A stretch of DNA of 64,000 bases from Dehalococcoidia bacterium (GTDB lineage: Bacteria > Chloroflexota > Dehalococcoidia > UBA2979), in contig OZ253555.1 in the NCBI GenBank assembly GCA_965262725.1, positions 3,104,001-3,168,000 on the forward strand, in the 5' to 3' direction. The notes beneath the pieces are model-generated. The model ran no database searches. It had not been told where the DNA came from and saw nothing but the letters and a program-made list of their open reading frames with translations. How positions within the stretch are numbered: the stretch's first letter is position 1; every line of letters begins with the position of its first letter. The position numbers and the translations under genes are program-made. Below are positions 14,822-56,142 of the stretch, one piece after another.

Positions 14822-16019
14822 CAACGCCGCCGCCGTCCGCCCGCGGAGGGCCGCCTCCTAGTGTCCTGAATTGGAAATGCGATTGAGATATCCGGTGAGG
14901 TTGGTGTGTCCCGAAGTCGAAGGGCGGGTGACGTGATGACGTAACCGGTCTGGAGACATGCTCGTCGTTGCCAGCCGGTGCGAGTCCGGCACGGGTAACT
15001 GTCAGGAGGCCCGTTAGCAGGTCGGCGGCGCGGACGGGAAACGGTCCACGTCGAAGCCCGACGTCAAGAGCCCTATCAGGGGGAGCAACCAGGCGGTCCG
15101 CAGCATCAAGCGAAGCCTGCCGCGTCGTTAACGGATAGTGGAGGAGCCGAGCCCGGCAATTCAGGGCGAAGGCCATGGACGAGGTGAAGATCCTGAATGC
15201 GCGTTGCGCTGCAGCCTCAAGGAACCTCCCGGCGTAAGGGGCGTGGAACGTTTGGAAGGTAGCGACGGGAACGGGAGAAGCCCTCCCCGGCCCGGCACCC
15301 TGCGAGATGGTGTCGGAGCGAGGTGCCCTATAACCGGTCAAAGCCGGGAAGTGGGCAGCTAGCCGGAAGGGTGACGGAGGGGGTCGTAGTACCGCTTGAG
15401 CCGGACGGACAACACAACCGCCGGTGATGGGAAGGACCCCTGCTTTGCTCACGCGTGGGGAGTAGGGATGAATCGGTGAGTGCCCAAGCGGCTAACTCCA
15501 TCCAAGACAAGGTCCGAACACTACAACGCACGCTTTACCGGGCGGCCAAGGCCGACCCCAATAGACGCTTTCATGCGCTCTACGACAAGGTTTATCGCAG
15601 AGACATTCTGGAGCGCGCGTGGGAGCAGGTGCGTCGCAATCGCGGCGCAGCCGGTATCGACGGCGTCACGCTCGCCGAGGTCGAGCGCTACGGCGTGGAG
15701 CGCCTGCTGGATGAACTGGCCACGGAACTGAAGGAGGGAAGCTACCGGGTGCAGCCGAGCCGCCGGGTCTGGATACCCAAGCCCGGTCGGTCGGAAGAGC
15801 GCCCGCTCTCGATTCCTTCGGTCCGCGACCGCATCGTGCAGGCGTCGCTGAAGCTCGTGACGGAGCCGGTCTTCGAGGCCGACTTCCTGCCATGCAGCTT
15901 CGGCTTCCGCCCGAAGCGTTCGGCCCATGACGCCCTGCAGGTCCTCATTGACGAGGCGTGGCGGGGCAGGCGGTGGGTAGTGGAGACGGACATCGCCTCG
16001 TGTTTCGAGTCGATACCGC

Positions 16020-16881
16020 GTGCGTCCGGAAGTCGAAGGGGTGGTGACGTGATGACGTGACCGGTCCGGAGACATGCTCGTTGCTGCCAGCCGGTGAGAG
16101 TCCGGCACGGGTAACTGTCAGGAGGCCCGTTAGCAGGTCGGCGGCGTGGACGGGAAACGGTCTGCGTCGAAGCCCGACGTCAAGAGCCCTATGAGGGGGA
16201 GCAAACGTGCGGTCCGCAGCATGACGCGAAGTCTGCCGCGCCGTGAGACTCGCCTGTCTATTGACAGGACCAAGGAGGAGCCGAGCCCGGGTGGTCAGGG
16301 CGAAGGCCATGGACGAGGTGAAGATCCTGGAATGCAGCCTCAAGAAACCTCCCGGCGTATGGGACGTGGAACGTACGGAAGGTAGCGACGGGAACCGGAG
16401 AAGCCCTCCCCGGCCCGGCACCCTGTGAGAGGGCGTCGGAGCGAGGCGTCCTATAACCGGTCAGAGCCGGGAAGTGGACAGCCAGCCGGAAGGGTGGCGG
16501 AGGGGGTCGTAGTACCGCTGGAGCCGGACGGACAACATAACCGCCGGTGATGGGAAGGACCCCTACTTTGTCCGTGCATGTTGCTGGGGGTGTGGACTGG
16601 TGAGTGCCCCTCGGGGCTAGCAACCACTTGGTAGGGTTCGAGGCTCTCCGCACATGCTGTACCGGCTGGCCAAGGCACGACCCACGTTGTGGGGAGCGCT
16701 GCATGCCATCTGGTGAAGGGCATCGGTGAGCCGGATGAGGGAGAACCTCACGTCCGGTTCGATGTGGCAGGGGCTGGAGACGGACGCTGCTATGGCCGTG
16801 GAGTTGGGCACCACCGGGAAACCGGCTTGGAACTGATGCGCCACCGCCTACGGCTCGCACCGCGCCAGCCCCTGACCCTAC
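16020..16881 (+). mobile_element. ORF-less group II intron (inner), copy 1, 862 nt
   Basis: 5' GTGCG, DV at ~16728-16761, 3' ...ccctAC; excision restores the in-frame RT sequence FESIP(c|ac)HDRLM. Confidence 0.93.
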
Positions 16882-17347
16882 ACGACCGTCTGATGACGGC
16901 CGTCGAGGAACGGATATGCGACCGCAATCTCCTGAAGCTGGTACGGGCGATGCTGCGTGCCGGTGTGATGGAGTCGGGGGTCGTGCAGCACAGCGCGACG
17001 GGTACGCCGCAGGGCGGGGTGATGTCCCCGCTGCTGGCCAATGTCTACCTGCACCGGTTGGACCGGGACTGGGAGGCGAAGGGTGATGGCGTGCTGGTGC
17101 GCTATGCGGATGACCTCGTGGTGCTCTGCCGGAGCCGGGAGGAAGCGGAGCGGGCGTTGGCCCTGCTGCGTGACCTGCTGGGTGAGCTCGGACTGGAGCT
17201 CAAGGCGGAGAAGACGCGCATTGGGAATGATGCTCTGAATTGGCCCCACCTGGAGCCGTTTTGATCCTTTGAATTGGCCCCACCCCCGACCCATCCAGGA
17301 CCTACGCTCGGGTGACTGCATGACTCCCGGAGCGAGGGAAGAGGAGT

Positions 17348-18982
17348 GTGTCGAGAGTGGAGCTGTTCGAGTCTATCCGACGGATGGCGAGGGAGGAGGA
17401 GCTGTCGATCCATGAGCTGGGACGCCGGCATGGCGTGCACCGGCGCACGGTGCGGCAGGCTCTTGGGTCGGCGATACCCCCGGAACGCAAGCAGGCGACC
17501 CGCGTGGCCCCGAAGCTCGGGCCGTACGTCTCGGTCATCCGGGGCTGGCTCGTGGACGACCTCAGCGCGCCGCGCAAGCAGCGGCACACGGCCCGGCGCA
17601 TCTGGGAGCGCCTCGTCGACGAACACGGGGCGACGGTGGCCGAGCCCACGGTCCGCGCCTGCGTCGCGCGCCTGCGTCGCGAGATCCAGGGCGGGCGCGC
17701 GGTTGTGACGATCCCGCAGGTCCATCCTCCCGGCGAGGAGGCGGAGGTCGACTTCGGCACGGTGACGGTGTGGCTGGAGGGCGTCGAGACCCGGCTGGCG
17801 ATGTTCGTGATGCGGCTCTCGCATTCGGGGCGGGCGGCGCACGTCTGCTTCGTCGGCGAGGGCCAGGAGTCTCTGCTCGAGGGGCACGTGGTCGCCTTCG
17901 AGCGGCTCGGCGGAGTGCCGCGGCGCATCCGCTACGACAATCTGACGGCGGCCGTCACCACCGTGCTGCAGGGACGCGAGCGCCTGCAGACCGAGCGCTT
18001 CATCGCGCTCCGCTCGCATTACGGCTTCGACAGCTTCTTCTGTGAGCCCGGCATCGAGGGCGCGCACGAGAAGGGCGGTGTGGAGGGCGAGGTCGGCCGC
18101 TTCCGCCGGCGGCACTTCGTGCCGGTCCCGAAGGTGGCGACCCTCGGCGAGCTGAACGAACGAGTGCGGGAGGCGGACCGCACCGACGACGCCCGGCACA
18201 TCGAGAGCCGCCTCGCCACCGTCGGCGAGATGGGAGAGAACGAGAAGGCCTCGCTGCGTCCGCTTCCGGCGGAGCGCTTCGACCCGTCAATCCCGCTGCG
18301 CGCGAAGGTCGACCGCAAGGCGCGCATCGCCGTGCGTAGCTCCCGCTACTCGGTCCCGGCGGCCTATGCAGGCCGGAAGCTGGACGTGCGGCTGTCCGGG
18401 AACAGCCTGACCGTGTGGGCCGAGGGGCGTGAAGTCGCCCACCACGAGCGCAGCGCCCGCACCGGAGCAGAGGTCCTGCTGCTCGACCACTATCTGGAGG
18501 TGCTCGCGCGCAAGCCCGGGGCGGTCCCGGGCTCGGTGGCGCTCCAGCAGGCGCGTGCGAAGGGACACGTCACAGCCGAGCATCAGCGCTTCTGGGACCG
18601 CGCCCGCCGCAAGCTCGGCGACCGCGCGGGCACGCAGGCGTACATCGAGGTCCTGCTCCTGCATCGCCATCTTCCCTTCACGGCGGTGCACGCCGCGCTC
18701 GGGACGGTCAACAGGATCCAGTCGGTGAACCCCGAACTGGTCGCCATCGAGGCGCGCCGTCTCGCCGACCGCAGGCCACCAGACGCCGCCGTCGAGAGAC
18801 CGCACCTGGAGCGCTACGACCGACCTGCCCCGCTCCTCGATGGCTACGATGCGCTGCTCTCGGGTGATTCCCGATGGCCCGGCACGTCGCCGGGCGGGCG
18901 CTCCCGCGCTCCGCGGTCTGCCGAGAACGCGTCGCACACCACCACAACCGCCGTCACCGCTGCGGTGTCGACGGCACGCTGA
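17348..18982 (+). CDS. istA: IS21 transposase IstA
   Basis: PRKQRHTARRIWERL, PGEEAEVDFG, RYDN, HEKGGVE, YSVP. Confidence 0.95.
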   Translation: MSRVELFESIRRMAREEELSIHELGRRHGVHRRTVRQALGSAIPPERKQATRVAPKLGPYVSVIRGWLVDDLSAPRKQRHTARRIWERLVDEHGATVAEPTVRACVARLRREIQGGRAVVTIPQVHPPGEEAEVDFGTVTVWLEGVETRLAMFVMRLSHSGRAAHVCFVGEGQESLLEGHVVAFERLGGVPRRIRYDNLTAAVTTVLQGRERLQTERFIALRSHYGFDSFFCEPGIEGAHEKGGVEGEVGRFRRRHFVPVPKVATLGELNERVREADRTDDARHIESRLATVGEMGENEKASLRPLPAERFDPSIPLRAKVDRKARIAVRSSRYSVPAAYAGRKLDVRLSGNSLTVWAEGREVAHHERSARTGAEVLLLDHYLEVLARKPGAVPGSVALQQARAKGHVTAEHQRFWDRARRKLGDRAGTQAYIEVLLLHRHLPFTAVHAALGTVNRIQSVNPELVAIEARRLADRRPPDAAVERPHLERYDRPAPLLDGYDALLSGDSRWPGTSPGGRSRAPRSAENASHTTTTAVTAAVSTAR

Positions 18983-18998
18983 CCACAGGAGGCACCCG

Positions 18999-19781
18999 AT
19001 GACAGCACCCCTCACCGACCAGGCCGCGGAGCTGACAATCGAGGCGATCTGCCGCGAGCTCCGTCTCCCCACCGTCAGGAAGCAGGCGCTCCCGCTCGCC
19101 GAAGCCGCGGTCCGAGACCGGATCACCCATCTGGGCTATCTCGCCGAAGTGCTGGGAGCCGAACGCGATGACCGTGAGGAGCGGCGCCGTCAGCGCCGTA
19201 TCGTCGAGGCGCGGTTCCCGCGTTTCAAGTACCTCGCCGACTTCGACCTCGAGGCGGCGCCGACAGTCGACGCGCCGGCGCTCGCCACGCTGGAGCGCTG
19301 CGACTGGGTCGAAAGGGGCGAGCCCGTCGTCCTGCTCGGTGACAGCGGCACCGGGAAGTCACACCTGCTCATCGGCCTCGGCATGGCCGCCTGCCACCTG
19401 GGGCTGCGCGTGCGGTACATGACCACGGCCGCCCTGGTGAATGAACTGGCCGAAGCGTCGGATGATCGCGCGCTCTCACGCCTCGTCGCCCGCTACGGCC
19501 GCCTCGACCTGCTCTGCCTGGATGAGTTCGGGTACGTCCACCTCGACCCGCGCGGTGCCGAAATGCTGTTCCAGATCCTGACCGAGCGCGAGGAACGGGC
19601 ATCGGTCGCCGTCGCCTCCAACTCCCCGTTCTCCGAGTGGGGCCGCATCTTCACCGACCCTCGTCTCGCCGCGGCCGTCGTTGACCGCCTCACCTACCGT
19701 GCCCATATCATCGAGACCGGCACCGAGTCCTACCGGCTCCGGGCCTCGACCTCCCCGAGAGGAGGTGCCCCAACGACCTGA
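18999..19781 (+). CDS. istB: IS21 helper ATPase IstB
   Basis: GDSGTGKSH, LLCLDEFGY, SN..FSEW, AVVDRL, ESYR. Confidence 0.95.
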   Translation: MTAPLTDQAAELTIEAICRELRLPTVRKQALPLAEAAVRDRITHLGYLAEVLGAERDDREERRRQRRIVEARFPRFKYLADFDLEAAPTVDAPALATLERCDWVERGEPVVLLGDSGTGKSHLLIGLGMAACHLGLRVRYMTTAALVNELAEASDDRALSRLVARYGRLDLLCLDEFGYVHLDPRGAEMLFQILTEREERASVAVASNSPFSEWGRIFTDPRLAAAVVDRLTYRAHIIETGTESYRLRASTSPRGGAPTT

Positions 19782-20035
19782 TCCCGGTCCCCGGGGGTGG
19801 GGCCAGATCAGAGGATCAAAGTGGGGCCAGATGTAAGCATCATTCCCACGCGCATCGTGCACCTGCGGGAGGGAGGCGAGGGGCTGGAGTTCCTCGGCTT
19901 CGAGCATCGCTGGGTACGTGCGAAGCGCAACAAGAATATCCAGTTCCTCGCACGCTGGCCCTCACGGCGAGCGATGCAGCGGGCGCGGGACCGCATCCGT
20001 GAAATCACGGCGCGGTTGCGTCTGCTGCTGAGTCC

Positions 20036-21453
20036 GGTCACGTCCCGGCAAGTGGTGTCACTGCGCATCATCCTTATCATTTGTTAGCCGGCAGCCTGCA
20101 GCAGCACCTCCTTGCCTGACGTGAGCTCACTCCCCGGCGGGGAGAGCAGCGTCATCATCGTCATGTAGCGCCGCCCCACGGCCCACTCGTCGTGCTGCTC
20201 GGAGAGCACCGCACCGATGAGCCGGATGACCGCTGAGCGGTTGGGGAAGATGCCGACCACGTTGGTGCGCCGGCGGATCTCCTTGTTGAGCCGCTCCTGG
20301 GGGTTGTTCGACCAGATCTGCCGCCAGTGCGCCACCGGGAAGGCCGTGAACGCCAGGATCTCCTCCGCGGCGTCGGCGAGCATTGCCGCGGCCTGCGGGA
20401 AGCGCGCACCGAGCTGCTCCACGACCCGCGTGTGCTGGGCGTGCACCTCGGAGGCCGAGGGCTGCTGGTAGATGGTGCGCACGGTCGTCGCCACCAGCGC
20501 CTCGGCGCTCTTCGGCACGCGTGTGAGCAGGTTCCGCATGAAGTGGGTACGGCAGCGCTGCCAGGAGGCGCCGCCGAAGACGGTCGCGATCGCTCCCCTC
20601 AGGCCCTGGTGGGCGTCGGAGGTCACCAGCTCCACGCCGGAGAGCCCTCGTGCTACGAGGCCGCGGAGAAATGCCAGCCAGAAGGCCCCGTCCTCGCTGG
20701 TACCGACGTCGATGCCCAGCACCTCGCGCTTCCCCTCCACGTTGACCGCGGTGGCGACGACGACGCTCACCTGGGCGATGCGGCCCTCCTCGCGCACCCG
20801 CTGGGTGAGCGCGTCGAGCCAGAGGTATCGGTAGGGGCCGGAGTCCAGGGGCCGGCCGAGGAAACTTGTGACGACCGTGTCGAGCTCCGAGCAGATACGC
20901 GAGACCTGGCTCTTGGAGATGCCCTCGCAGCCGAGCGAGCGCACGAGGTCGTCGACGCGGCGAGTGGAGACGCCCTCCACGTACGCTTGCTGGACGACGG
21001 CTAGCAAGGCGCGCTCTGAGCGGCGCCGGGGCTCGAGCAGCGCCGGGAAGTAGGACCCCTGGCGGAGCTTCGGGATCTGCAGGTCGATGCTGCCCACCCG
21101 CGTGTCCCAGCGTCTTTGCCTGTAGCCGTTGCGCCGGGTGGTGCGCATCTCGCTGCGCTCGCCGTAGCCGGCGCCGACCTGCGCCGAGACCTCCTGGTCC
21201 ATGACCGCCTCGGCGAGCACAGCCACCGCTTCGCGCAGGAAATCGAGGTCAGCTCCCGATGCCTGCTTGCGGAGCAGTTCCAACACGTCCACGCTCTCTC
21301 TGACCACCGTCGTCCTCCTCCACGTTCGTCATAACTTCGTGAAGGATGATGCGGTGGTCTCTTACGTCCACCTGCATGGGCACCGTGGTCGGTAGTAGGT
21401 CCCCCTGCGGAGACCGTCTCCCCGCCTGTGACACCACTTGCTGGGACGCTACT
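20036..21453 (-). mobile_element. IS256-family element (1418 bp)
   Basis: 26-bp IR (22/26) ggtcacgtcccggcaagtggtgtcac; 8-bp TSD CTGAGTCC (20028-20035 and 21454-21461). Confidence 0.95.
20084..21307 (-). CDS. IS256-family transposase
   Basis: RNGYR, IPKLRQGSYFP, GVSTRRV, WLDA, SDAHQGL, WQRCRTHF, NPQERLNKEIRRR. Confidence 0.95.
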   Translation of the reverse strand: MVRESVDVLELLRKQASGADLDFLREAVAVLAEAVMDQEVSAQVGAGYGERSEMRTTRRNGYRQRRWDTRVGSIDLQIPKLRQGSYFPALLEPRRRSERALLAVVQQAYVEGVSTRRVDDLVRSLGCEGISKSQVSRICSELDTVVTSFLGRPLDSGPYRYLWLDALTQRVREEGRIAQVSVVVATAVNVEGKREVLGIDVGTSEDGAFWLAFLRGLVARGLSGVELVTSDAHQGLRGAIATVFGGASWQRCRTHFMRNLLTRVPKSAEALVATTVRTIYQQPSASEVHAQHTRVVEQLGARFPQAAAMLADAAEEILAFTAFPVAHWRQIWSNNPQERLNKEIRRRTNVVGIFPNRSAVIRLIGAVLSEQHDEWAVGRRYMTMMTLLSPPGSELTSGKEVLLQAAG

Positions 21454-22040
21454 CTGAGTCCCCGGCAGGTCGTGGAGGAAGTCAATCGCTACCTCCGCGG
21501 CTGGATGAGCTACTTCCGCTACGGCAACTCGGCGAGGGCGTTCGACGTCCTGCACTGGTTTGCCATGTGGAGACTCAAACTCTGGCTGGGGAAGCGGTTG
21601 CGTTGGCGGCGACGCCATCGCGGGCACCCGTTTCCCGTCGCCGACCGTCTGGGGCTCATCTCGCTAGCTGGACAGCGCGTCGTGGCACCACGGCCATATC
21701 GACCGTGGCGGGGCACCCCGCATGCCGCCCGGTGAAGGGCATCGGTGAGCCGGATGAGGGAAAACCTCACGTCCGGTTCGAGGCGGCAGGGGCTGGAGAC
21801 GGACGATGCTACGGCTGTGGAGATGGGCGCCACCGGGAAACCGGCCTGGCAATATGCGCCACCGCCTACGGCTCGCACCGCGCCAGCCCCTGACCCTACT
21901 CAAGGATCTGGTCCGCGGACTTGTGCCAGATGAAGCGCCTCCGGTGCTCGTTTCCAGTTGCGACCCAAGCCTCCACTGAGCGGACCAGGCCTGCGAGGCT
22001 CGGTGCGATTGTTTTCAGCATTTGCAACTCGGGACACTAG

Positions 22041-23957
22041 GACGCTGGTTGCAAATTCGAGTCTCGGTGGCCGCAGTCGGTGTGAGAGGGAAGTGTAGCG
22101 TCGGGTGGGCGCGGGTCGGGAGTTGCGCCGCTGGGGAGTGAGCGGGGCCGGCATCGACCCGGGATCGGGACCCCCGGACGCAGGCTCTCCCGCAGTGGCC
22201 CCCGCCTCCGTCTCCCCTACGAGGGCGCTGTGACCGCCCACCGGGTTGGTGTGTGATGCAGGCCCAGGACCGCCAACCGCGCCAGGTTGACTGAGGCGGC
22301 GAGCAGGTTGTGGTCGGCGTCGACCTTGAGACGGCCCCGGACACGGGCGACGCGGCCCCCGTGTCTGCGACGGGTCGTATGCGCCACCTTGCGTTCGACT
22401 ATCGAGCGGACCGTGCGGTAGCCGGAGAGCCACCCGGGAGCCTCCTGGCGTGCCCGGGCGGCCGCGAGGCTGGCCTCGCGTGGATCCCGACCTCGACGGT
22501 GCGGCCCGCAGGCGATGTGGTGCACTGGGCGCGAAGCGGACAGGGGCTGCAGGCGCCGCGGAAGTAGGCGGTCCCCGGGCCGTCGGAGGCGCGGCGAATC
22601 GGCACGGTCACCTCCGCGGGACAGGTGACGCTCCCCCTCTCCAGGTCGACGGTGAATCGCTCCTTGCTGAAACGGTGATGCGGTGCGGTCGCTCTCTGAG
22701 TGCGGCAGCGGGACTCGACCCCGTGCTCCTCCAGCAGCGACTGGAACGCGCCCGAGCCGTAGGCCGAATCGCCGTAGACGGTCGCCGTCCCGGTGCTCGC
22801 CTCCGCAGCCGGGTCGTCGGCATCGTCGTGTTCGCCTGCGTCCTCCAGCAGGTCCGTGATCAACTCCTCCGCGACATCGCCGTCCGCCACGTTGCCTGCG
22901 GTCACCGTCGTGTGGGTGATGAGCTCCGACTCCGGGTCGATCGCCAGGTGCCCCTTGTAGCCATCGAAGCCGTGCGCAGAGCTCTTGCGCCCGTGGCGGG
23001 CGTCGGGGTCCACGGTCGAGATGATGCGGTCCCTCGCCACCCGCCGCGCAATCACGAAGCGGCCGCCTTCGTCCTGCTCGAGGTCCTGCCCCACCACGGC
23101 CGCACACAGCTCGCCTGCCCGCGCAACGCGCTCGTCGAGCTCCCGTCCCTCCAGCACCCGGAGGCAGCTGGAGACATCGGTCGCCAGTTCGTCGATGAGC
23201 GCCCGCGCAGCCTCGCGGTCCTCCCAGTCACACGGAGGCTTGCCGGGAGCTCGATAGTCGTCATCGCGCCTCAGCACCGCCCGCAGCTCGGCCTCGAGCC
23301 CGGACTCACCGAGGCGCTCCGCCTCCCGCAGCAGCCCGCGGACCGACGACCGGAGCAATGTCACCGTGTCCTGCGTCGCGACCGCGTCGTAGAGCGGCGT
23401 CGAGTCCAGCACTCGCTGCGCAGAGAGCAGCTTCGCCTCGCGCGCCACCACAAGCGTGGCCTCGAAGATGCGCCGGGGGCGCTCGGAGCGGGCGAGGCGC
23501 GCCCGCATCGAGACCAGCACCGTGTGCACGAAGCCCGGCGCGTCGTAGTCGAGTCCGCCGCAGGCGAACTTCCAGCGGGCGTCCCACTCGAAGGCAGCCA
23601 CCGCCTCGCGGTCGGACAGGCCGTGGAGACGCTGCAGCACCATGACCGTGGCGACCACCCGTGGCGGAACGCTCCCGCGGCCGCGAGCGGAGAAGAGGTC
23701 GGCGAACATCTCGTCGGGGAAGAGGCGTTCGCCGTGGCGGGCAAGGAGGGTCCAGATGGAGTTCCCGGGGAGCCTCTCAGCGACGTAGGCGGTGCTCTTG
23801 AAGAAGGTAAGGGGCTGCCTGGAGGTCTCTCCCTGTGTCATGAGCGAGACTTTCACTGCGAACAGAACTGATCACCAACATGATCGCATTCCGTGACTGC
23901 TCGCAACGATGCCCCGCCTCCAGAAGGCACCCACCGCCCCACAAAAACACCAGGCTC
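22041..23957 (-). mobile_element. IS1182/IS5-like element
   Basis: Short imperfect IRs (g)gacgctggt / (g)gagcctggt, flanked by CTAG at 22037-22040 and 23958-23961; transposase inside. Exact ends depend on whether the TSD is TA or CTAG. Confidence 0.65.
22217..23841 (-). pseudogene. IS1182-like transposase with a frameshift near 22485
   Basis: GRGSVPP, LSDREAV, LDST, ISTVDPDARHG.KS..FDGYKGH, YGDSAY and C..CPLR..CT in one frame; C-terminal YR..RSIVERK..RVRG...NL.RL in another frame. Confidence 0.8.
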
Positions 23958-27560: not shown

Positions 27561-27662
27561 GCCGATCAGTGGCTGGTCTAGTGTCCTGATTCGTAATAGC
27601 GACAGATAACGGGTATGGTGGCACAGCGGGGTTTTGCCCCATGGGGCAGACTCTGGAGTGTC

Positions 27663-28715
27663 ATGAGCACCCGAATCGGACGGCCGACGGTCGCGATCGT
27701 CCTGAGCGACGAGGAGCGTGAGACGCTGGAGCGGTGGGCGCGCCGGCCGACATCGGCCCAGGCGCTGGCGCTGCGCTGTCGCATCGTCCTGGCAGCGGCC
27801 GAGGGGACATCGAATAAAGCGATCGCCGCGGCGCTCGATTGCCATCCGGTCACCGTCGGCAAGTGGCGCCGGCGCTTTGCGCAGGGGCGGCTCGATGGGC
27901 TACAGGATGAGCCGCGCCCCGGGGCGCCGCGCACGATCGCCGATGCACAGGTGGAAGCGGTGATCGTCACGACGCTGGAGGAGCAGCCTCCCAACGCGAC
28001 GCACTGGTCGACCCGATCGATGGCAGCCGCGGTCGGGATGTCGCAGTCGGCGATCTTCAGGATCTGGCGCGCCTTCGGCCTGAAGCCGCACCTCGTGGAG
28101 AGCTTCAAGCTGTCGCCCGACCCGCAGTTCATCGACAAGGTGCGCGACGTGGCCGGGCTCTATCTCAACCCGCCCGACGCGGCGGTTGTGCTGTGCGTGG
28201 ACGAGAAGACCCAGATCCAGGCACTCGACCGCACCGCGCCGACGGTGCCGATGATGCCCGGCGTCCCCGCCCGCCAGACGCACGACTACATCCGTCACGG
28301 CACGACGAACCTCTACGCGGCGCTCGATGTCGCCTCGGGATGCGTGATCACGGAGATGACCCCCCGGCACCGGGCTCGGGAGTTCCAGCAGTTCCTCGCC
28401 CTCATCGACCAAAGCGTTCCCCGTGAGCTGGCGGTGCATGTCGTGCTCGACAACGTCTCCACGCACCGCACGCCCGCCATCCAGCGCTGGCTCCAGCGCC
28501 ATCCCCGCTTCACCTTCCATTTCACGCCGACCTACAGCTCCTGGATGAACCTCGTGGAGCGCTGGTTTGCAGAGCTCACCAGCAAGTGGCTCCGGCGCGG
28601 CACGCACCATAGCGTCCCTGATCTGATCCGCTCAGTGGAGATGTGGGTCGCCAGCTGGAACGAGAATCCGAGGCCCTTCATCTGGCACAAGTCCGCGGAC
28701 CAGATCCTTGAGTAG
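27663..28715 (+). CDS. IS630 transposase, C-terminally truncated by the antisense intron (native tail DNLAGYLERIPESGH* at 31647-31692)
   Basis: HTH region, THWSTR, CVDEKTQIQA, DYIRHGT, VLDNVSTH, PTYSSWMNLVERWF: DDE triad intact. Confidence 0.92.
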   Translation: MSTRIGRPTVAIVLSDEERETLERWARRPTSAQALALRCRIVLAAAEGTSNKAIAAALDCHPVTVGKWRRRFAQGRLDGLQDEPRPGAPRTIADAQVEAVIVTTLEEQPPNATHWSTRSMAAAVGMSQSAIFRIWRAFGLKPHLVESFKLSPDPQFIDKVRDVAGLYLNPPDAAVVLCVDEKTQIQALDRTAPTVPMMPGVPARQTHDYIRHGTTNLYAALDVASGCVITEMTPRHRAREFQQFLALIDQSVPRELAVHVVLDNVSTHRTPAIQRWLQRHPRFTFHFTPTYSSWMNLVERWFAELTSKWLRRGTHHSVPDLIRSVEMWVASWNENPRPFIWHKSADQILE

Positions 28716-28875
28716 GGTCAGGGGCTGGCGCGGTGCGAGCCGTAGGCGGTGGCGCATATTGCCAGGCCGGTTTCCCGGTGGCGCCCATCTCCACAGCCGT
28801 AGCATCGTCCGTCTCCAGCCCCTGCCGCCTCGAACCGGACGTGAGGTTTTCCCTCATCCGGCTCACCGATGCCCT

Positions 28876-31075
28876 TCACCGGGCGGCATGCGGGGTGCCC
28901 CGCCACGGTCGATATGGCCGTGGTGCCACGACGCGCTGTCCAGCTAGCGAGATGAGCCCCAGACGGTCGGCGACGGGAAACGGGTGCCCGCGATGGCGTC
29001 GCCGCCAACGCAACCGCTTCCCCAGCCAGAGTTTGAGTCTCCACATGGCAAACCAGTGCAGGACGTCGAACGCCCTCGCCGAGTTGCCGTAGCGGAAGTA
29101 GCTCATCCAGCCGCGGAGGTAGCGATTGACTTCCTCCACGACCTGCCGGGGACTCAGCAGCAGACGCAACCGCGCCGTGATTTCACGGATGCGGTCCCGC
29201 GCCCGCTGCATCGCTCGCCGTGAGGGCCAGCGTGCGAGGAACTGGATATTCTTGTTGCGCTTCGCACGTACCCAGCGATGCTCGAAGCCGAGGAACTCCA
29301 GCCCCTCGCCTCCCTCCCGCAGGTGCACGATGCGCGTCTTCTCCGCCTTGAGCTCCAGTCCGAGCTCACCCAGCAGGTCACGCAGCAGGGCCAACGCCCG
29401 CTCCGCTTCCTCCCGGCTCCGGCAGAGCACCACGAGGTCATCCGCATAGCGCACCAGCACGCCATCACCCTTCGCCTCCCAGTCCCGGTCCAACCGGTGC
29501 AGGTAGACATTGGCCAGCAGCGGGGACATCACCCCGCCCTGCGGCGTACCCGTCGCGCTGTGCTGCACGACCCCCGACTCCATCACACCGGCACGCAGCA
29601 TCGCCCGTACCAGCTTCAGGAGATTGCGGTCGCATATCCGTTCCTCGACGGCCGTCATCAGACGGTCGTGTAGGGTCAGGGGCTGGCGCGGTGCGAGCCG
29701 TAGGCGGTGGCGCATCAGTTCCAAGCCGGTTTCCCGGTGGTGCCCAACTCCACGGCCATAGCAGCGTCCGTCTCCAGCCCCTGCCACATCGAACCGGACG
29801 TGAGGTTCTCCCTCATCCGGCTCACCGATGCCCTTCACCAGATGGCATGCAGCGCTCCCCACAACGTGGGTCGTGCCTTGGCCAGCCGGTACAGCATGTG
29901 CGGAGAGCCTCGAACCCTACCAAGTGGTTGCTAGCCCCGAGGGGCACTCACCAGTCCACACCCCCAGCAACATGCACGGACAAAGTAGGGGTCCTTCCCA
30001 TCACCGGCGGTTATGTTGTCCGTCCGGCTCCAGCGGTACTACGACCCCCTCCGCCACCCTTCCGGCTGGCTGTCCACTTCCCGGCTCTGACCGGTTATAG
30101 GACGCCTCGCTCCGACGCCCTCTCACAGGGTGCCGGGCCGGGGAGGGCTTCTCCGGTTCCCGTCGCTACCTTCCGTACGTTCCACGTCCCATACGCCGGG
30201 AGGTTTCTTGAGGCTGCATTCCAGGATCTTCACCTCGTCCATGGCCTTCGCCCTGACCACCCGGGCTCGGCTCCTCCTTGGTCCTGTCAATAGACAGGCG
30301 AGTCTCACGGCGCGGCAGACTTCGCGTCATGCTGCGGACCGCACGTTTGCTCCCCCTCATAGGGCTCTTGACGTCGGGCTTCGACGCAGACCGTTTCCCG
30401 TCCACGCCGCCGACCTGCTAACGGGCCTCCTGACAGTTACCCGTGCCGGACTCTCACCGGCTGGCAGCAACGAGCATGTCTCCGGACCGGTCACGTCATC
30501 ACGTCACCACCCCTTCGACTTCCGGACGCACGCGGTATCGACTCGAAACACGAGGCGATGTCCGTCTCCACTACCCACCGCCTGCCCCGCCACGCCTCGT
30601 CAATGAGGACCTGCAGGGCGTCATGGGCCGAACGCTTCGGGCGGAAGCCGAAGCTGCATGGCAGGAAGTCGGCCTCGAAGACCGGCTCCGTCACGAGCTT
30701 CAGCGACGCCTGCACGATGCGGTCGCGGACCGAAGGAATCGAGAGCGGGCGCTCTTCCGACCGACCGGGCTTGGGTATCCAGACCCGGCGGCTCGGCTGC
30801 ACCCGGTATCTTCCCTCCTTCAGTTCCGTGGCCAGTTCATCCAGCAGGCGCTCCACGCCGTAGCGCTCGACCTCGGCGAGCGTGACGCCGTCGATACCGG
30901 CTGCGCCGCGATTGCGACGCACCTGCTCCCACGCGCGCTCCAGAATGTCTCTGCGATAAACCTTGTCGTAGAGCGCATGAAAGCGTCTATTGGGGTCGGC
31001 CTTGGCCGCCCGGTAAAGCGTGCGTTGTAGTGTTCGGACCTTGTCTTGGATGGAGTTAGCCGCTTGGGCACTCAC
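28876..31075 (-). CDS. ltrA: Group II intron RT/maturase (445 aa, no endonuclease domain), split into exons 31075-30532 and 29669-28876
   Basis: 544+794=1338 nt, open after inner-intron splicing; RT motifs including YADD and X domain; GTG start inferred. Confidence 0.92.
29670..30531 (-). mobile_element. ORF-less group II intron (inner), copy 2, 862 nt
   Basis: Reverse complement of 16020-16881, with the same length and insertion site. Confidence 0.93.
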
Positions 31076-31836
31076 CGATTCATCCCTACTCCCCACGCGT
31101 GAGCAAAGCAGGGGTCCTTCCCATCACCGGCGGTTGTGTTGTCCGTCCGGCTCAAGCGGTACTACGACCCCCTCCGTCACCCTTCCGGCTAGCTGCCCAC
31201 TTCCCGGCTTTGACCGGTTATAGGGCACCTCGCTCCGACACCATCTCGCAGGGTGCCGGGCCGGGGAGGGCTTCTCCCGTTCCCGTCGCTACCTTCCAAA
31301 CGTTCCACGCCCCTTACGCCGGGAGGTTCCTTGAGGCTGCAGCGCAACGCGCATTCAGGATCTTCACCTCGTCCATGGCCTTCGCCCTGAATTGCCGGGC
31401 TCGGCTCCTCCACTATCCGTTAACGACGCGGCAGGCTTCGCTTGATGCTGCGGACCGCCTGGTTGCTCCCCTGATAGGGCTCTTGACGTCGGGCTTCGAC
31501 GTGGACCGTTTCCCGTCCGCGCCGCCGACCTGCTAACGGGCCTCCTGACAGTTACCCGTGCCGGACTCGCACCGGCTGGCAACGACGAGCATGTCTCCAG
31601 ACCGGTTACGTCATCACGTCACCCGCCCTTCGACTTCGGGACACACCAACCTCGCCGGATATCTAGAGCGCATCCCTGAATCGGGACACTAGGAGCGGTC
31701 GGAACAGTTGCGGATGAGCGCCTTGCTCTCTGGTACCTAGTGCTTGCAGTCGATCCCCGCTCGGCGCGCTGCCAAACGCACCATGCGCACGCCACTCCAC
31801 CTGTTCAGACGATCCCTACGTCGCCGCCTGCCCGCC

Positions 31837-51301: not shown

Positions 51302-51432
51302 CGGCGCCCCCCGTCCGCGCGACCGCCGGGGTAGGGGCTCTTGAAGCAAGGGGCCGACGCGAGACGCATCGCCACCCGCGACGCCAGCGCTCGACGCTCC
51401 GCTCTGCCGTGAGAGAGGGGGCCGGGGCCGAC

Positions 51433-51523
51433 GACCGCATCCCTACGCACGTATCAACGTGATCAGGTTCAAGGGGTTGACGGCTCCTGGCCGCCTCTCA
51501 GCCCGCAGGCACCCCCAGCGGTC
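51433..51523 (-). promoter_or_regulatory. TPP riboswitch
   Basis: Minus strand reads gaccgc.GGGGGTGC..GCTGAGA..ACCCCTTGAACCTGATC..GTTGATAC..CGTAGGGA.gcggtc, with P1 closure, upstream of thiB. Confidence 0.93.
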
Positions 51524-51612
51524 ATCCTGATTCACCGGGATCGTGACAGACAGGGCCGCGGGCGGTCAAGGCTGGGCGGCGCCTCGGTCGGACACGTGGT
51601 GGGGCCGATGCC

Positions 51613-55824: not shown

Positions 55825-55865
55825 GCGAGGCTCCGTCGGGCGCCGGGGACCCGCGTGCTACACTC

Positions 55866-55976
55866 GCATCCGTCACGGCGCAGAGCCCGGGGAAGCCGGT
55901 GGGAGTCCGGCGCTGTCCCGCAACTGTGAGCCGCAATCTCCGTCGGAGATCGCGGCGAGCCAGAGCACCGGCCTGT
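55866..55976 (+). promoter_or_regulatory. Cobalamin riboswitch
   Basis: GGGAAGCCGGTG.GAGTCCGGCGCTGTCCCGCAACTGTGA ... GAGCCAGA B12-box core upstream of btuCD-like genes; ends approximate. Confidence 0.9.
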
Positions 55977-56142
55977 GATCGTTATGTCGGCCTGCGAGGA
56001 CAGGCGACGGCTGGCTGTGAGCGTAGCTGCACCCTCGTCCTCGTCGCAATTTGCTGCGTGCCGCGGAGGAGCGCCCCCGCTGGCGAGCGAGGCGTGGGAG
56101 ATGCGGCGTGTCCCACAGCACCCCGACCGGAGGTCGTCGCCC

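What the first reader, a model, noticed from the sequence alone, without database searches (positions are those of the whole stretch)
15132..16360. Three-site guide reprogramming: EBS1, EBS2 and EBS3 differ between sibling introns and each matches its own target
Seen: in the otherwise identical hairpin gccgagcccgg-NNNNN-cagggcgaaggc, the outer intron has CAATT (15157-15161), pairing with its exon end GGTTG (14899-14903). The inner has GTGGT (16291-16295), pairing with ACCGC (16015-16019); both include G-U pairs. At the putative EBS2 the outer has CGGATA (15132-15137) against exon TATCCG (14889-14894, also conserved in the copy-2 host), and the inner has GACTCG (16247-16252) against CGAGTC (16006-16011). 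At the putative EBS3 (cggcgtaN) the outer has A15237 opposite T(+1), and the inner has T16360 opposite A(+1). Inference: the satellite is specifically adapted to a conserved RT motif rather than inserted by chance, and one IEP tolerates two targets, a natural targetron pair. IBS2 lies 3-4 nt upstream of the 5-bp IBS1, which seems wider than usual.
Basis: partly seen in the sequence, partly recalled or inferred. Interest (0 to 1): 0.82.

Follow-up and report, generated by a model that had tools for sequence, protein, structure and literature searches.

The report
Nested introns with retargeted guide sequences
Two related mobile self-splicing introns, one nested inside the other's reverse-transcriptase gene, differ at the three short guide sequences that choose an insertion site, and each guide matches its own site; the reading is correct but is standard behaviour for this kind of element.

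Summary
The window holds two copies of a group II twintron: an RT-encoding outer intron (14904-21899 +; 31646-28712 -) with an 862-nt ORF-less inner intron (16020-16881 +; 30531-29670 -) splitting the RT domain.

Three independent tests support the pairings:
- **Ectopic copies.** The genome holds 28 inner copies, 12 at ectopic sites. All 12 pair at 4 or more of 5 EBS1 positions (random sites 20%). Ten pair at 5 or more of 6 EBS2 positions (random 14%).
- **Lineages.** Across 8 intron lineages the true intron-target assignment beats 40,319 of 40,320 permutations.
- **EBS3.** It pairs with +1 in 9 of 9 known 3' junctions, using three pair types.

Empty sites fix both intron boundaries. Weak points: EBS2 of the outer intron rests on one target family, and which protein mobilises the inner intron is untested.

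Retargeted sibling introns, ORF-less derivatives homing into intron ORFs and head-to-tail copies are all published (Thermosynechococcus, Sinorhizobium, Methanosarcina). This is a new member of a known kind. One notable point: all 15 RT genes of the two helper families are interrupted.

The parts
14904..21899 (+). Outer RT-encoding group II intron, copy 1 (5' GTGTG ... CCCTAC 3'), damaged by two IS insertions
   Evidence: Rfam RF02003 at 14972-15108 and RF00029 at 21745-21812. Boundaries are fixed by empty host sites ...ggcgaggttg|tcaaggatc... in the genome and by contigs that skip exactly 2935 nt in runs X5 and X8.
14889..14894 (+). IBS2 of the outer intron (TATCCG, -15..-10)
   Evidence: Six Watson-Crick pairs with CGGATA at 15132-15137. 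It is the only fully unpaired 6-mer match found in the scan.
14899..14903 (+). IBS1 of the outer intron (GGTTG, -5..-1)
   Evidence: Pairs with CAATT at 15157-15161.
15132..15137 (+). EBS2 of the outer intron (CGGATA)
   Evidence: Single-stranded slot after helix cols 219-224/345-350. It uses the same helical register as the inner, third and G083a introns when left-justified.
15157..15161 (+). EBS1 of the outer intron (CAATT) in the 9-nt terminal loop GGCAATTCA
   Evidence: Loop of the hairpin at cols 266-269/279-282.
15237..15237 (+). EBS3 of the outer intron (A)
   Evidence: Internal loop between helices 212-215/354-357 and 219-224/345-350. It pairs with T21900.
21900..21900 (+). IBS3 of the outer intron (T, +1 of the 3' exon)
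16020..16881 (+). Inner ORF-less group II intron (862 nt, GTGCG...CCCTAC), inserted in the RT domain of the outer intron's IEP
   Evidence: RF02003 at 16088-16224. RF00029 scores 37.5 bits, below the 40-bit cut-off. The Pfam RVT_1 profile is split at positions 83/84. There are 28 copies in the genome. Contigs in run X8 skip exactly 862 nt.
16006..16011 (+). IBS2 of the inner intron (CGAGTC, -14..-9)
16015..16019 (+). IBS1 of the inner intron (ACCGC)
16247..16252 (+). EBS2 of the inner intron (GACTCG), 5' of a small hairpin (CCTGTC/GACAGG) that the outer intron lacks
16291..16295 (+). EBS1 of the inner intron (GTGGT) in the loop GGGTGGTCA
16360..16360 (+). EBS3 of the inner intron (T)
   Evidence: It pairs with A16882.
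16882..16882 (+). IBS3 of the inner intron (A); first base of IEP exon 2 (c|ac = His)
16728..16881 (+). Domains V (16728-16760) and VI (16761-16881) of the inner intron. Domain VI is a long helix with a bulged A 7 nt from the 3' end.
   Evidence: z-score -4.6.
15455..16019 (+). IEP exon 1 (RT motifs up to ...ETDIASCFESIP). The start codon is uncertain.
17222..19848 (+). IS21-like insertion in IEP exon 2 of copy 1 (approximate ends; terminal inverted repeats TGGGAATGATGC / GCATCATTCCCA)
   Evidence: Comparison. ORFs 17348-18982 and 18840-19781. The family name is my own reading, from no call.
20036..21453 (-). Second IS insertion in IEP exon 2 of copy 1 (approximate ends; flanking repeat CTGAGTCC)
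   Evidence: Comparison. ORF 20084-21307 on the minus strand.
28712..31646 (-). Intact twintron, copy 2 (2935 nt)
29670..30531 (-). Inner intron of copy 2, 100% identical to 16020-16881. EBS2 at 30304-30299, EBS1 at 30260-30256, EBS3 at 30191.
31314..31419 (-). Guide region of outer copy 2: EBS2 at 31419-31414, EBS1 at 31394-31390, EBS3 at 31314
27615..28715 (+). Transposase (DDE_3 with HTH domains) of the host IS. The outer intron sits antisense in its last codons, about 45 nt from the IS end.

Best explanation
The region is a group II twintron. The outer intron has an IIB-like ribozyme and encodes an RT/maturase without an endonuclease domain. It homes into one end of an IS element. An ORF-less deletion derivative of the same lineage (862 nt) homes into the RT-motif sequence ...TTCGAGTCGATACCGC|A inside the outer intron's own RT gene.

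Both introns choose their sites by base pairing of three short RNA segments of domain I with the DNA or RNA exons:
- EBS1, four variable bases plus an invariant U in a terminal loop, pairs with -5..-1.
- EBS2, 5-6 bases in a single strand, pairs with about -14..-9.
- EBS3, one base in an internal loop, pairs with +1.

The two introns are about 86% identical in domains I-III, but these three segments have been replaced, which gives the two introns different targets.

Shown here: the anatomy, the loop positions, the pairing statistics and the exact boundaries.

Inferred:
- The inner intron is spliced and mobilised in trans by an RT of the outer or the third family.
- Insertion uses replication forks, as for other endonuclease-less RTs.
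- RT synthesis requires prior splicing of the inner intron.
For: 1. **Identity of the elements.** Rfam finds 4 RF02003 and 2 RF00029 matches in the window. Pfam finds RVT_1 and GIIM and nothing after GIIM, with the RVT_1 profile split 1-83 / 84-204 exactly at the inner intron.
2. **Fold.** In the consensus fold of 9 homologues, 98.3% of cells are paired. Twenty-four pairs have compensatory changes, against 11.6 +/- 2.2 in shuffles (0 of 500 reach the observed value). Slid controls give 36-48% paired. EBS1, the EBS2 slot and EBS3 all fall in unpaired positions.
3. **Ectopic copies of the identical inner intron (12).** Positions -4..-1 can pair with GTGG in 48 of 48 cells, counting G-U. EBS1 pairs at 5 of 5 positions in 8 of 12 sites, against 3.6% of random sites. 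EBS2 pairs at 5 or more of 6 in 10 of 12, against 13.8%. The +1 base is A in 7, G in 2, C in 1 and T in 2 of 12, with A at 14.6% of the genome (P = 6e-4).
4. **Covariation in relatives.** At the same alignment columns the third family has ACCCT against exon CGGGT and GAGTCC against GGACTC. G083a has GGAAT against CTTCC and AGCCA against TGGCT. G004a has GGGAT against ATCCC. G076a has GCCGT against ACGGT.
5. **Cognate against non-cognate targets.** EBS1 pairs average 4.5 against 2.25. The EBS2 run averages 4.1 against 1.7. EBS3 pairs in 9 of 9 cognate cases against 56% of non-cognate ones. Permutation gives 1 of 40,320.
6. **Boundaries.** Empty host-IS sites exist in the genome. Contigs skip 2935 nt (X5, X8) and 862 nt (X8).
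7. **Independent mobility of the inner intron.** There are 28 copies, 24 of them 100% identical over the full 862 nt. Twelve are ectopic, 3 sit in a second RT family and 1 is a head-to-tail tandem.
8. **Orientation.** Eleven of 12 ectopic copies (12 of 12 if the ill-defined terminus is placed 26 kb further on) and 10 of 12 outer copies lie with the intron sense strand on the GC-skew leading side. This is the bias reported for endonuclease-less class D introns (PMC4615759).
Against: 1. EBS2 of the outer intron is supported by only one target family. All 12 copies sit in the same IS or its short derivative, and one of them carries TAGCCG, a mismatch.
2. The nearest hairpin-less relative, G004a, pairs only 3 contiguous bases in the same register with its two targets.
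3. G077a's single target shows a run of only 1, and G076c pairs only 3 of 5 in EBS1.
4. Single-sequence minimum-energy folds of the outer and inner domain I arm do not reproduce the consensus fold.
5. For IIE and IIF introns an apparent EBS2-IBS2 pairing had no role in self-splicing in vitro (PMC3753933). Pairing potential alone therefore does not prove use in splicing.
6. The inner intron's domain V/VI scores 37.5 bits, below Rfam's 40-bit cut-off.
7. No spliced RNA junction was seen. The two RNA-library runs gave only short contigs inside the inner intron, and these may be DNA.
Confidence: 0.9

Rival explanations
1. The complementarities are chance matches in a GC-rich genome, and the segments are not exon-binding sites.
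For: Short complementary 5- to 7-mers between exons and domain I are common. One search lists 8 for the outer exon and 14 for the inner exon, including GGTTG/CAACC (cols 183-187) and ACCGC/GCGGT (cols 190-194).
Against: Those other matches lie mostly in conserved helices and do not covary in relatives.
Confidence: 0.02
2. For the outer intron only EBS1 and EBS3 are used. The CGGATA/TATCCG match is fortuitous or vestigial, as the hairpin next to EBS2 has been deleted in this lineage.
For: - The outer intron has a single target family.
- G004a, the other hairpin-less intron, pairs only 3 contiguous bases in register.
- EBS2 is dispensable for IIE and IIF self-splicing.
- One occupied site has TAGCCG.
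Against: The match is six of six Watson-Crick pairs in the single-stranded slot, in the same helical register (col 229 pairs with -10, through col 234 with -15) as the inner, third and G083a introns. By my own arithmetic, the chance of such a match at one fixed register is about (1/4)^6.
Confidence: 0.15
3. The nested arrangement spreads mainly as a composite unit: the whole twintron retrohomes. Shared position in the 12 outer copies would then say little about repeated, base-pair-guided homing of the inner intron.
For: All 12 outer copies carry the inner intron at the same offset and are 99.8-100% identical. No outer copy without the inner intron exists in this genome.
Against: The identical inner intron also sits in 3 copies of a second RT family, at 12 ectopic sites and once in tandem. 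It therefore moves on its own. The two routes are not exclusive, as discussed for T. elongatus.
Confidence: 0.3
4. The inner intron is served by the third-family RT, or by the unrelated uninterrupted RT family with about 40% identity, and not by the outer intron's RT.
For: The inner intron's domain IV start matches the third family over 138 nt at 72%. It matches the outer intron only over the first 31 nt and a second 31-nt piece. About ten RT genes of a distant family are uninterrupted.
Against: Domains I-III and V-VI of the inner intron are closer to the outer intron (86% and 89%) than to the third family (79% and 78-81%). Maturases are usually specific to close relatives (my own knowledge, not from a call).
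Confidence: 0.3

Closest known systems
Thermosynechococcus elongatus TeI3/TeI4 intron families (Mohr, Ghanem and Lambowitz 2010, PMC2882425; passages read)
   Same: - Intron families are defined by diverged EBS sequences.
- ORF-less deletion derivatives sit in a genome with RT-encoding relatives.
- ORF-less introns insert at a conserved site in the RT-encoding intron, forming twintrons.
- Inner copies are identical while outer copies have diverged.
- Other introns target IS elements.
- One IEP was shown to splice and mobilise both members of a twintron.
   Different: In T. elongatus the inner intron lies between the first two ATGs, so the IEP can be made without splicing it. Two of the eight RT-encoding introns there have uninterrupted ORFs. 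Here the insertion is in the middle of the RT domain and 15 of 15 genes are hit. Those introns are IIB1/CL with an En domain. Here the IEP has no En domain and EBS1 is shorter.
RmInt1 / RmInt2 / Sr.md.I1, class D introns of Sinorhizobium (PMC4615759; passages read)
   Same: - Sibling introns have different EBS1, EBS2 and EBS3 (G-C against U-A at EBS3) and target different IS elements.
- The EBS2 register is shifted by one nucleotide and the IBS1-IBS2 linker varies.
- T at -15 is critical and conserved.
- The endonuclease-less IEP shows a lagging-strand-template bias.
- Head-to-tail copies are attributed to EBS3 U pairing with the first G of the intron.
   Different: The class D C-terminal motif LX3AX3PXLF[V/A]HW is absent here. 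The linker is 3-4 nt rather than 1-2. Those papers describe no ORF-less satellite inside the RT gene in the passages I read.
Nested introns of Methanosarcina acetivorans (Dai and Zimmerly 2003; paper not held; known here only from the passages in PMC4424553, and PMC2882425)
   Same: ORF-less and RT-encoding introns home site-specifically into the sequences of related group II introns, giving nested arrays.
   Different: That case is archaeal, with up to five levels of nesting. I could not check the insertion positions or the EBS data.
Targetrons (engineered retargeting of EBS1, EBS2 and delta/EBS3; PMC3898094, search listing only)
   Same: Specificity is changed by replacing the same three short RNA segments while keeping the ribozyme and the protein.
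   Different: Targetrons are engineered. Here the change arose naturally, and no assay has been done.

Membership tests
Group II intron (ribozyme plus IEP) | 5' GUGYG and 3' AY termini | tested here: met
   The outer intron runs GTGTG...CTAC and the inner GTGCG...CTAC. The boundaries are confirmed by empty sites.
Group II intron (ribozyme plus IEP) | Domain V hairpin with the AGC triad, and domain VI with a bulged A | tested here: met
   RF00029 scores 41.5 bits for the outer intron and 37.5 bits for the inner, below the cut-off, E 1.3e-5. The fold has a bulged A 7 nt from the 3' end. Domain VI is unusually long, about 120 nt.
Group II intron (ribozyme plus IEP) | Domain I-IV core recognised by a curated covariance model | tested here: met
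   RF02003 scores 91.8-102.8 bits against a 49-bit cut-off: 4 matches in the window and 44 in the genome.
Group II intron (ribozyme plus IEP) | IEP with an RT domain and a maturase (X) domain in domain IV | tested here: met
   RVT_1 and GIIM are found. YADD is present. A 452-aa ORF results after in-silico removal of the inner intron in 7 of 12 copies.
IIB-type exon recognition (EBS1 + EBS2 + EBS3) | EBS1 in a terminal loop of domain I, pairing with the last bases of the 5' exon | tested here: met
IIB-type exon recognition (EBS1 + EBS2 + EBS3) | EBS2 pairing with a second 5'-exon segment | tested here: met
   Strong for the inner, third, G083a and G098a introns. Supported by a single target family for the outer intron. 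Weak for G004a and G077a.
IIB-type exon recognition (EBS1 + EBS2 + EBS3) | EBS3 in an internal loop of domain I, pairing with +1 of the 3' exon (as opposed to delta-delta' of IIA) | tested here: met
   Nine of 9 targets of 7 introns pair, with A-T, T-A and G-C. The 3' end of G098a was placed by homology only.
IIC / class C | No EBS2; insertion after a terminator stem-loop | tested here: not met
   EBS2 is present and covaries. The targets are an IS end and an RT coding motif.
IEP class D (RmInt1-like) | C-terminal signature LX3AX3PXLF[V/A]HW (quoted in PMC4615759) | tested here: not met
   The regular expression and relaxed forms find nothing in the C-terminal half. The IEP class stays undetermined. 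No reference IEP sequences were at hand for a tree.
Endonuclease-less IEP | No D/En region after domain X | tested here: met
   Pfam finds nothing beyond GIIM (residues 154-226 of 264), and only about 38 residues follow.
Twintron | One intron inserted precisely within another, with an uninterrupted form known | tested here: met
   The Pfam profile is continuous across the junction. Uninterrupted homologous RT genes occur in 4 loci of 3 other genomes and in contigs of run X8.

The most novel reading that the evidence does not exclude
The ORF-less intron is an obligate hyperparasite that has saturated every RT gene of its two helper families: 15 of 15 are interrupted in the middle of the RT domain. 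Synthesis of the helper protein would then depend on the parasite's own splicing, and so would the mobility of three intron families (44 copies in a 3.67-Mb genome). That would be a built-in feedback linking helper production to splicing of the parasite, not described in the passages I read for the cyanobacterial or rhizobial cases.
Probability: 0.25. Interest if true: 0.6.

Novelty: new member of a known kind. Interest (0 to 1): 0.35.

Why it matters
This is a clean natural illustration of how group II introns change targets by replacing three short guide segments. It comes with a rare internal control: 12 ectopic insertions of one identical intron give its target rules directly. These are:
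- -4..-1 strictly able to pair;
- a CGAG core of IBS2;
- T at -15;
- A preferred at +1.

For specialists the more interesting point is genomic. An ORF-less derivative interrupts every RT gene of its presumed helpers, inside a genome holding at least four intron families, some nested three deep. The compact, endonuclease-less ribozyme with a short EBS1 could be of practical interest for retargeting, but nothing here shows activity.

Tried and rejected
**Alternative pairing partners.** I scanned all of domain I for alternative partners of each exon. Other 5- to 7-mers exist, but they lie in conserved helices and do not covary, so I rejected them.

**An EBS2a-IBS2a pair.** I tested whether T(-15) is explained by an EBS2a-IBS2a pair of the kind described for IIB1 and IIB2 introns (PMC8643678). 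By hand, the base two positions upstream of EBS2 pairs with the base upstream of IBS2 in only 3 of 6 lineages with Watson-Crick pairs, plus 1 with G-U. The result is inconclusive and I dropped it. T(-15) is better matched by the IEP-recognised T-15 of RmInt1.

**Widening the homologue set.**
- The 'order' search returned the same 99 genomes as the 'family' search.
- The protein scan of genome contigs gave 5 loci. Only one seemed to lie outside the genomes already sampled, and it lacks domain I.
- The covariation set therefore stayed at 9 introns in 8 lineages.

**IEP class.** RF02003 rings in none of the 14 control genomes, and the class D motif is absent. No reference sequences were available for a tree.

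**Single-sequence folds.** The folds recover the canonical arm in 3 of 9 sequences only. I rely on the consensus fold.

**Sequencing runs.**
- No joint across either intron was seen in the two RNA-labelled runs (X19, X20).
- They gave only short contigs inside the inner intron: one of 263 nt and one of 179 nt, each with 0 differences. DNA carry-over is not excluded, so nothing can be said about expression or splicing.
- Parts without cover in these runs mean nothing.

**An error in one of my tables.** The +1 column printed in the table is wrong for minus-strand sites because of a script slip, and the EBS3 row computed from it is wrong too. The per-position counts lower in the same output are right, and those are the ones used.

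**An assumption I withdrew.** I first assumed an actinobacterium from the GC content. No call supports that, and I leave the organism unnamed.

**Literature search.** The search was poorly aimed and supports no claim of absence from print.

**Material I could not see.** Supplementary files of papers were closed. The supplementary figures of PMC2882425 and PMC4615759, which hold target-site alignments, may bear on how unusual the 3-4 nt linker is.
Full report
**What is there.** The window is G000:C1:3104001-3168000. It holds two copies of a nested group II intron.

Copy 1 is on the plus strand. The outer intron spans 14904-21899 (GTGTG...CCCTAC). The inner intron spans 16020-16881 (GTGCG...CCCTAC, 862 nt). 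Two IS elements have landed in the downstream half of the RT gene, at about 17222-19848 and 20036-21453.

Copy 2 is on the minus strand and is intact: outer 31646-28712 (2935 nt), inner 30531-29670.

Rfam finds four domain I-IV matches (RF02003, 91.8-102.8 bits) and two domain V/VI matches (RF00029, 41.5 bits) at gathering thresholds. The inner intron's domain V/VI scores 37.5 bits, just under the 40-bit cut-off. It folds into a canonical domain V followed by a long domain VI with a bulged A 7 nt from the 3' end.

The outer intron encodes an RT/maturase. Pfam RVT_1 is split exactly at profile positions 83/84 by the inner intron. GIIM follows, and there is nothing after it, so no endonuclease domain.

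The outer intron's host is the end of an IS with a DDE_3 transposase, or a short derivative of that IS of about 188 bp. The intron is antisense to the transposase and lies in its last codons.

**Check of the observation.** The hairpin gccgagccc-N9-gggcgaaggc is conserved and its loop differs between the introns: GGCAATTCA in the outer, GGGTGGTCA in the inner.

**Do the segments lie in loops?** I collected homologues from the same genome and from five other genomes of the same family:
- a third intron family in G000, about 78% identical;
- introns in G083, G004, G076, G077 and G098.

I aligned domain I of 9 introns. The RNAalifold consensus is a standard domain I:
- 119 pairs, with 98.3% of cells paired.
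- 24 pairs have changes on both sides, against 11.6 +/- 2.2 in shuffles (0 of 500 reach the observed value).
- Only 36-48% of cells pair when the partners are slid by 1-3 columns.

In this fold the three segments sit as follows:
- EBS3 (col 352) is in the internal loop between helices 212-215/354-357 and 219-224/345-350.
- EBS2 lies in the single strand that follows helix 219-224/345-350.

In 7 of the 9 introns a small, covarying hairpin follows EBS2. The outer intron and G004a lack it.

One caveat applies. Single-sequence minimum-energy folds recover this arm in only 3 of 9 sequences, and not for the outer or inner intron themselves.

**An independent test from the genome itself.** The genome holds 12 outer copies and 28 inner copies. 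Twenty-four of the inner copies are 100% identical over all 862 nt. The 28 inner 5' junctions divide as follows:
- 12 lie in the outer intron's RT gene;
- 3 lie at the same site in the third family's RT gene;
- 1 is the second unit of a head-to-tail tandem;
- 12 are at unrelated, ectopic sites.

Results:
- Positions -4..-1 can pair with GTGG in 48 of 48 cells. The variation seen (C/T, C/T, G/A, C/T) is exactly what G-U wobble allows.
- EBS1 pairs at 5 of 5 positions in 8 of 12 sites (random sites 3.6%) and at 4 or more of 5 in 12 of 12 (random 19.8%).
- EBS2 pairs at 5 or more of 6 positions, within +/-2 nt, in 10 of 12 sites (random 13.8%).
- The joint criterion is met by 10 of 12 sites, against 2.7% of random sites.
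- The +1 base is A in 7, G in 2, C in 1 and T in 2. A makes up 14.6% of the genome, so P(7 or more of 12) = 6e-4.

**Covariation among homologues.** At the same alignment columns the other lineages carry different bases that fit their own exons:

| Intron | EBS1 / IBS1 | EBS2 / IBS2 | EBS3 / +1 |
|---|---|---|---|
| third family | ACCCT / CGGGT (4 of 5) | GAGTCC / GGACTC (6 of 6; 5 in a second target) | A / T |
| G083a | GGAAT / CTTCC (4 of 5) | AGCCA / TGGCT | A / T |
| G004a | GGGAT / ATCCC and GTCCT (5 of 5) | not identified | 3' end not found |
| G076a, G077a | GCCGT / ACGGT and GCGGC (5 of 5) | weak (see below) | G / C |
| G098a | TCCCT / CGGGA (4 of 5) | TGGTG / CACCA | G / C |

Summary figures:
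- EBS3 pairs with +1 in 9 of 9 targets with a known 3' end, using three pair types. The G098a 3' end was placed by homology only.
- Cognate pairs average 4.5 EBS1 pairs and an EBS2 run of 4.1. The 96 non-cognate combinations average 2.25 and 1.7.
- Among all 40,320 assignments of 8 targets to 8 lineages, 2 reach the observed EBS1 sum and 1 (the true assignment) reaches the EBS2 sum or the combined sum.

Results against the reading are these. G004a pairs only 3 contiguous EBS2 bases in register. G077a's single target gives a run of 1. G076c pairs only 3 of 5 in EBS1. Because the fifth EBS1 base (T) never varies, EBS1 is effectively four variable bases plus a U that pairs only when -5 is A or G.

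**The outer intron's EBS2.** All 12 outer copies sit in one target family, so there is no ectopic test. One copy has TAGCCG, a mismatch. In favour of the assignment:
- The match is six Watson-Crick pairs in the unpaired slot.
- Once the deletion of the hairpin is left-justified, it uses the same helical register as the inner, third and G083a introns: col 229 pairs with -10, through col 234 with -15.

I hold this assignment at about 85%.

**Boundaries.**
- Empty host sites in the genome read ...ggcgaggttg|tcaaggatc....
- Contigs of two public runs skip exactly 2935 nt (X5, X8). Two contigs of X8 skip exactly 862 nt at 29669|30532. That run is of unknown library type, and the bridging contig is about 10% diverged, so it comes from a relative.
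- In G083, G098 and G004 (2 loci) the homologous RT genes are uninterrupted. At the two loci whose junction was printed (L020 of G083, L026 of G098) the site still reads ttcgagtcgattccgc|a: IBS2 6 of 6, IBS1 4 of 5, IBS3 A.
- By the DNA search of 99 genomes, these relatives give only diverged matches (78-86% identity) to the inner intron's sequence; 100%-identical copies are listed only for G000.

**How it most likely works.** The following steps are inferred.

The inner intron is a deletion derivative. Its domains I-III are about 86% identical, and domains V-VI 89% identical, to the outer intron. A remnant of the RT N-terminus lies in domain IV.

It must be spliced and mobilised in trans. The candidate helpers are the outer RT and the third-family RT, and I cannot tell which.

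The IEP has no endonuclease domain. The orientation data fit priming at replication forks:
- The cumulative GC skew has its minimum near 0.40 Mb and its maximum near 2.51 Mb.
- Eleven of 12 ectopic inner copies have the intron sense strand on the leading-strand side. The twelfth lies 26 kb past the maximum, in a 0.6-Mb plateau. By my own arithmetic, P(11 or more of 12) = 13/4096.
- Ten of 12 outer copies show the same orientation.
- This is the bias reported for class D introns.

T at -15 is present in 9 of 12 ectopic sites (P = 5e-6) and in 10 of 12 homologue targets. This matches the T-15 that is critical for RmInt1 and is probably a protein contact.

The tandem copy (G000:C1:549500-551223) is what one expects if EBS3 U pairs with the first G of a resident copy. 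That explanation was given for RmInt2.

**All helper genes are hit.**
- tblastn finds 12 outer-family and 3 third-family N-terminal RT halves. All 15 stop at residue 188, directly against an inner intron.
- After in-silico removal of the inner intron, 7 of 12 outer copies give a 452-aa ORF. The other 5 carry IS insertions.
- A distant RT family with about 40% identity and about ten copies is uninterrupted.

**Comparison with what is known.** The closest case is T. elongatus (PMC2882425, passages). It has EBS-defined families, ORF-less derivatives, insertion into a conserved site of an RT-encoding intron or an IS, identical inner copies, and one IEP serving both members. There, however, the inner intron lies between two start codons and does not break the RT.

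The rhizobial class D introns (PMC4615759, passages) show the same three-site divergence, register shifts of EBS2, T-15, the strand bias and tandem copies. The class D C-terminal motif is absent here.

Homing of ORF-less introns into related intron sequences is reported for M. acetivorans. I know this only through PMC4424553 and PMC2882425; the original paper is not held.

The review states that ORF-less introns are rare in bacteria and nearly always occur beside related IEP-encoding introns. That is the pattern here. The IEP class remains undetermined.

**Verdict.** The mechanism is the ordinary one for group II introns, and natural retargeting of sibling introns is already in print. This is a new member of a known kind. 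Its main added value is the 12-site natural target set and the complete interruption of the helper RT genes.

Noticed in passing
G000:C1:549500-551223 (locus L029): Two identical inner introns lie head to tail inside one outer intron (3798-nt twintron). This fits EBS3 U pairing with the first G of a resident copy, as described for RmInt2.
   Followed up: partly
G000:C1:732582-737446 (locus L028); also G004 locus L021: Three-level nesting. A third-family intron carries the inner intron, and that inner intron is split after the 14th base of its domain V by a 1923-nt element starting GTGCGCC. That element belongs to a fourth intron family with about 10 copies at about 85% identity. The same element interrupts domain V at the same position in an intron of another genome (G004), which suggests a family that homes into domain V.
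   Followed up: partly
whole genome G000: There are 44 RF02003 matches (28 inner, 12 outer, 4 third family), plus a distant RT family of about ten uninterrupted copies, in 3.67 Mb. All 15 RT genes of the outer and third families are interrupted at residue 188.
   Followed up: yes
G000 ectopic inner sites, position -15: T is found at -15 in 9 of 12 ectopic sites and in 10 of 12 homologue targets. It is not explained by pairing with the base next to EBS2, so it is probably a protein contact.
   Followed up: partly
whole genome G000: Intron orientation follows the GC skew: 11 or 12 of 12 ectopic inner copies and 10 of 12 outer copies. The skew is flat over 0-0.45 Mb and over 1.95-2.55 Mb, so the origin and terminus are poorly defined.
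   Followed up: partly
window 14858-14903 with 21900-22041; window 27615-28715: The outer intron's host occurs in two forms: a full IS with a DDE_3 transposase, and a derivative of about 188 bp with the same terminal repeats (ctagtgtcc...ggacactag). The intron is antisense to the transposase and replaces its last 16 or so codons with Glu-stop.
   Followed up: partly
window 17222-19848 and 20036-21453: Two different IS elements are inserted in the RT gene of copy 1. Copies of the first also interrupt other intron copies (for example G000:C1:291405-294032).
   Followed up: no
loci L023, L024, L025 (G077, G076): Relatives in two other genomes are also ORF-less (about 911 nt). They sit at non-intron targets, with EBS1 5 of 5 and EBS3 G-C.
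   Followed up: partly
window 31463 region (copy 2) against 15082-15086 (copy 1): There is a one-base difference in a G run of a domain I loop (CAGGGGAGC against CAGGGGGAGC). It is the only length difference between the two outer copies' ribozymes.
   Followed up: no
window 30118-30380 and 29890-30068 (runs X19, X20): Contigs of two RNA-labelled libraries are identical to parts of the inner intron (263 nt and 179 nt). DNA carry-over is not excluded.
   Followed up: no
window 51423-51526 (-) and 55860-55990 (+): A TPP riboswitch (71.5 bits) and a cobalamin riboswitch (42.4 bits) pass the Rfam gathering thresholds.
   Followed up: no
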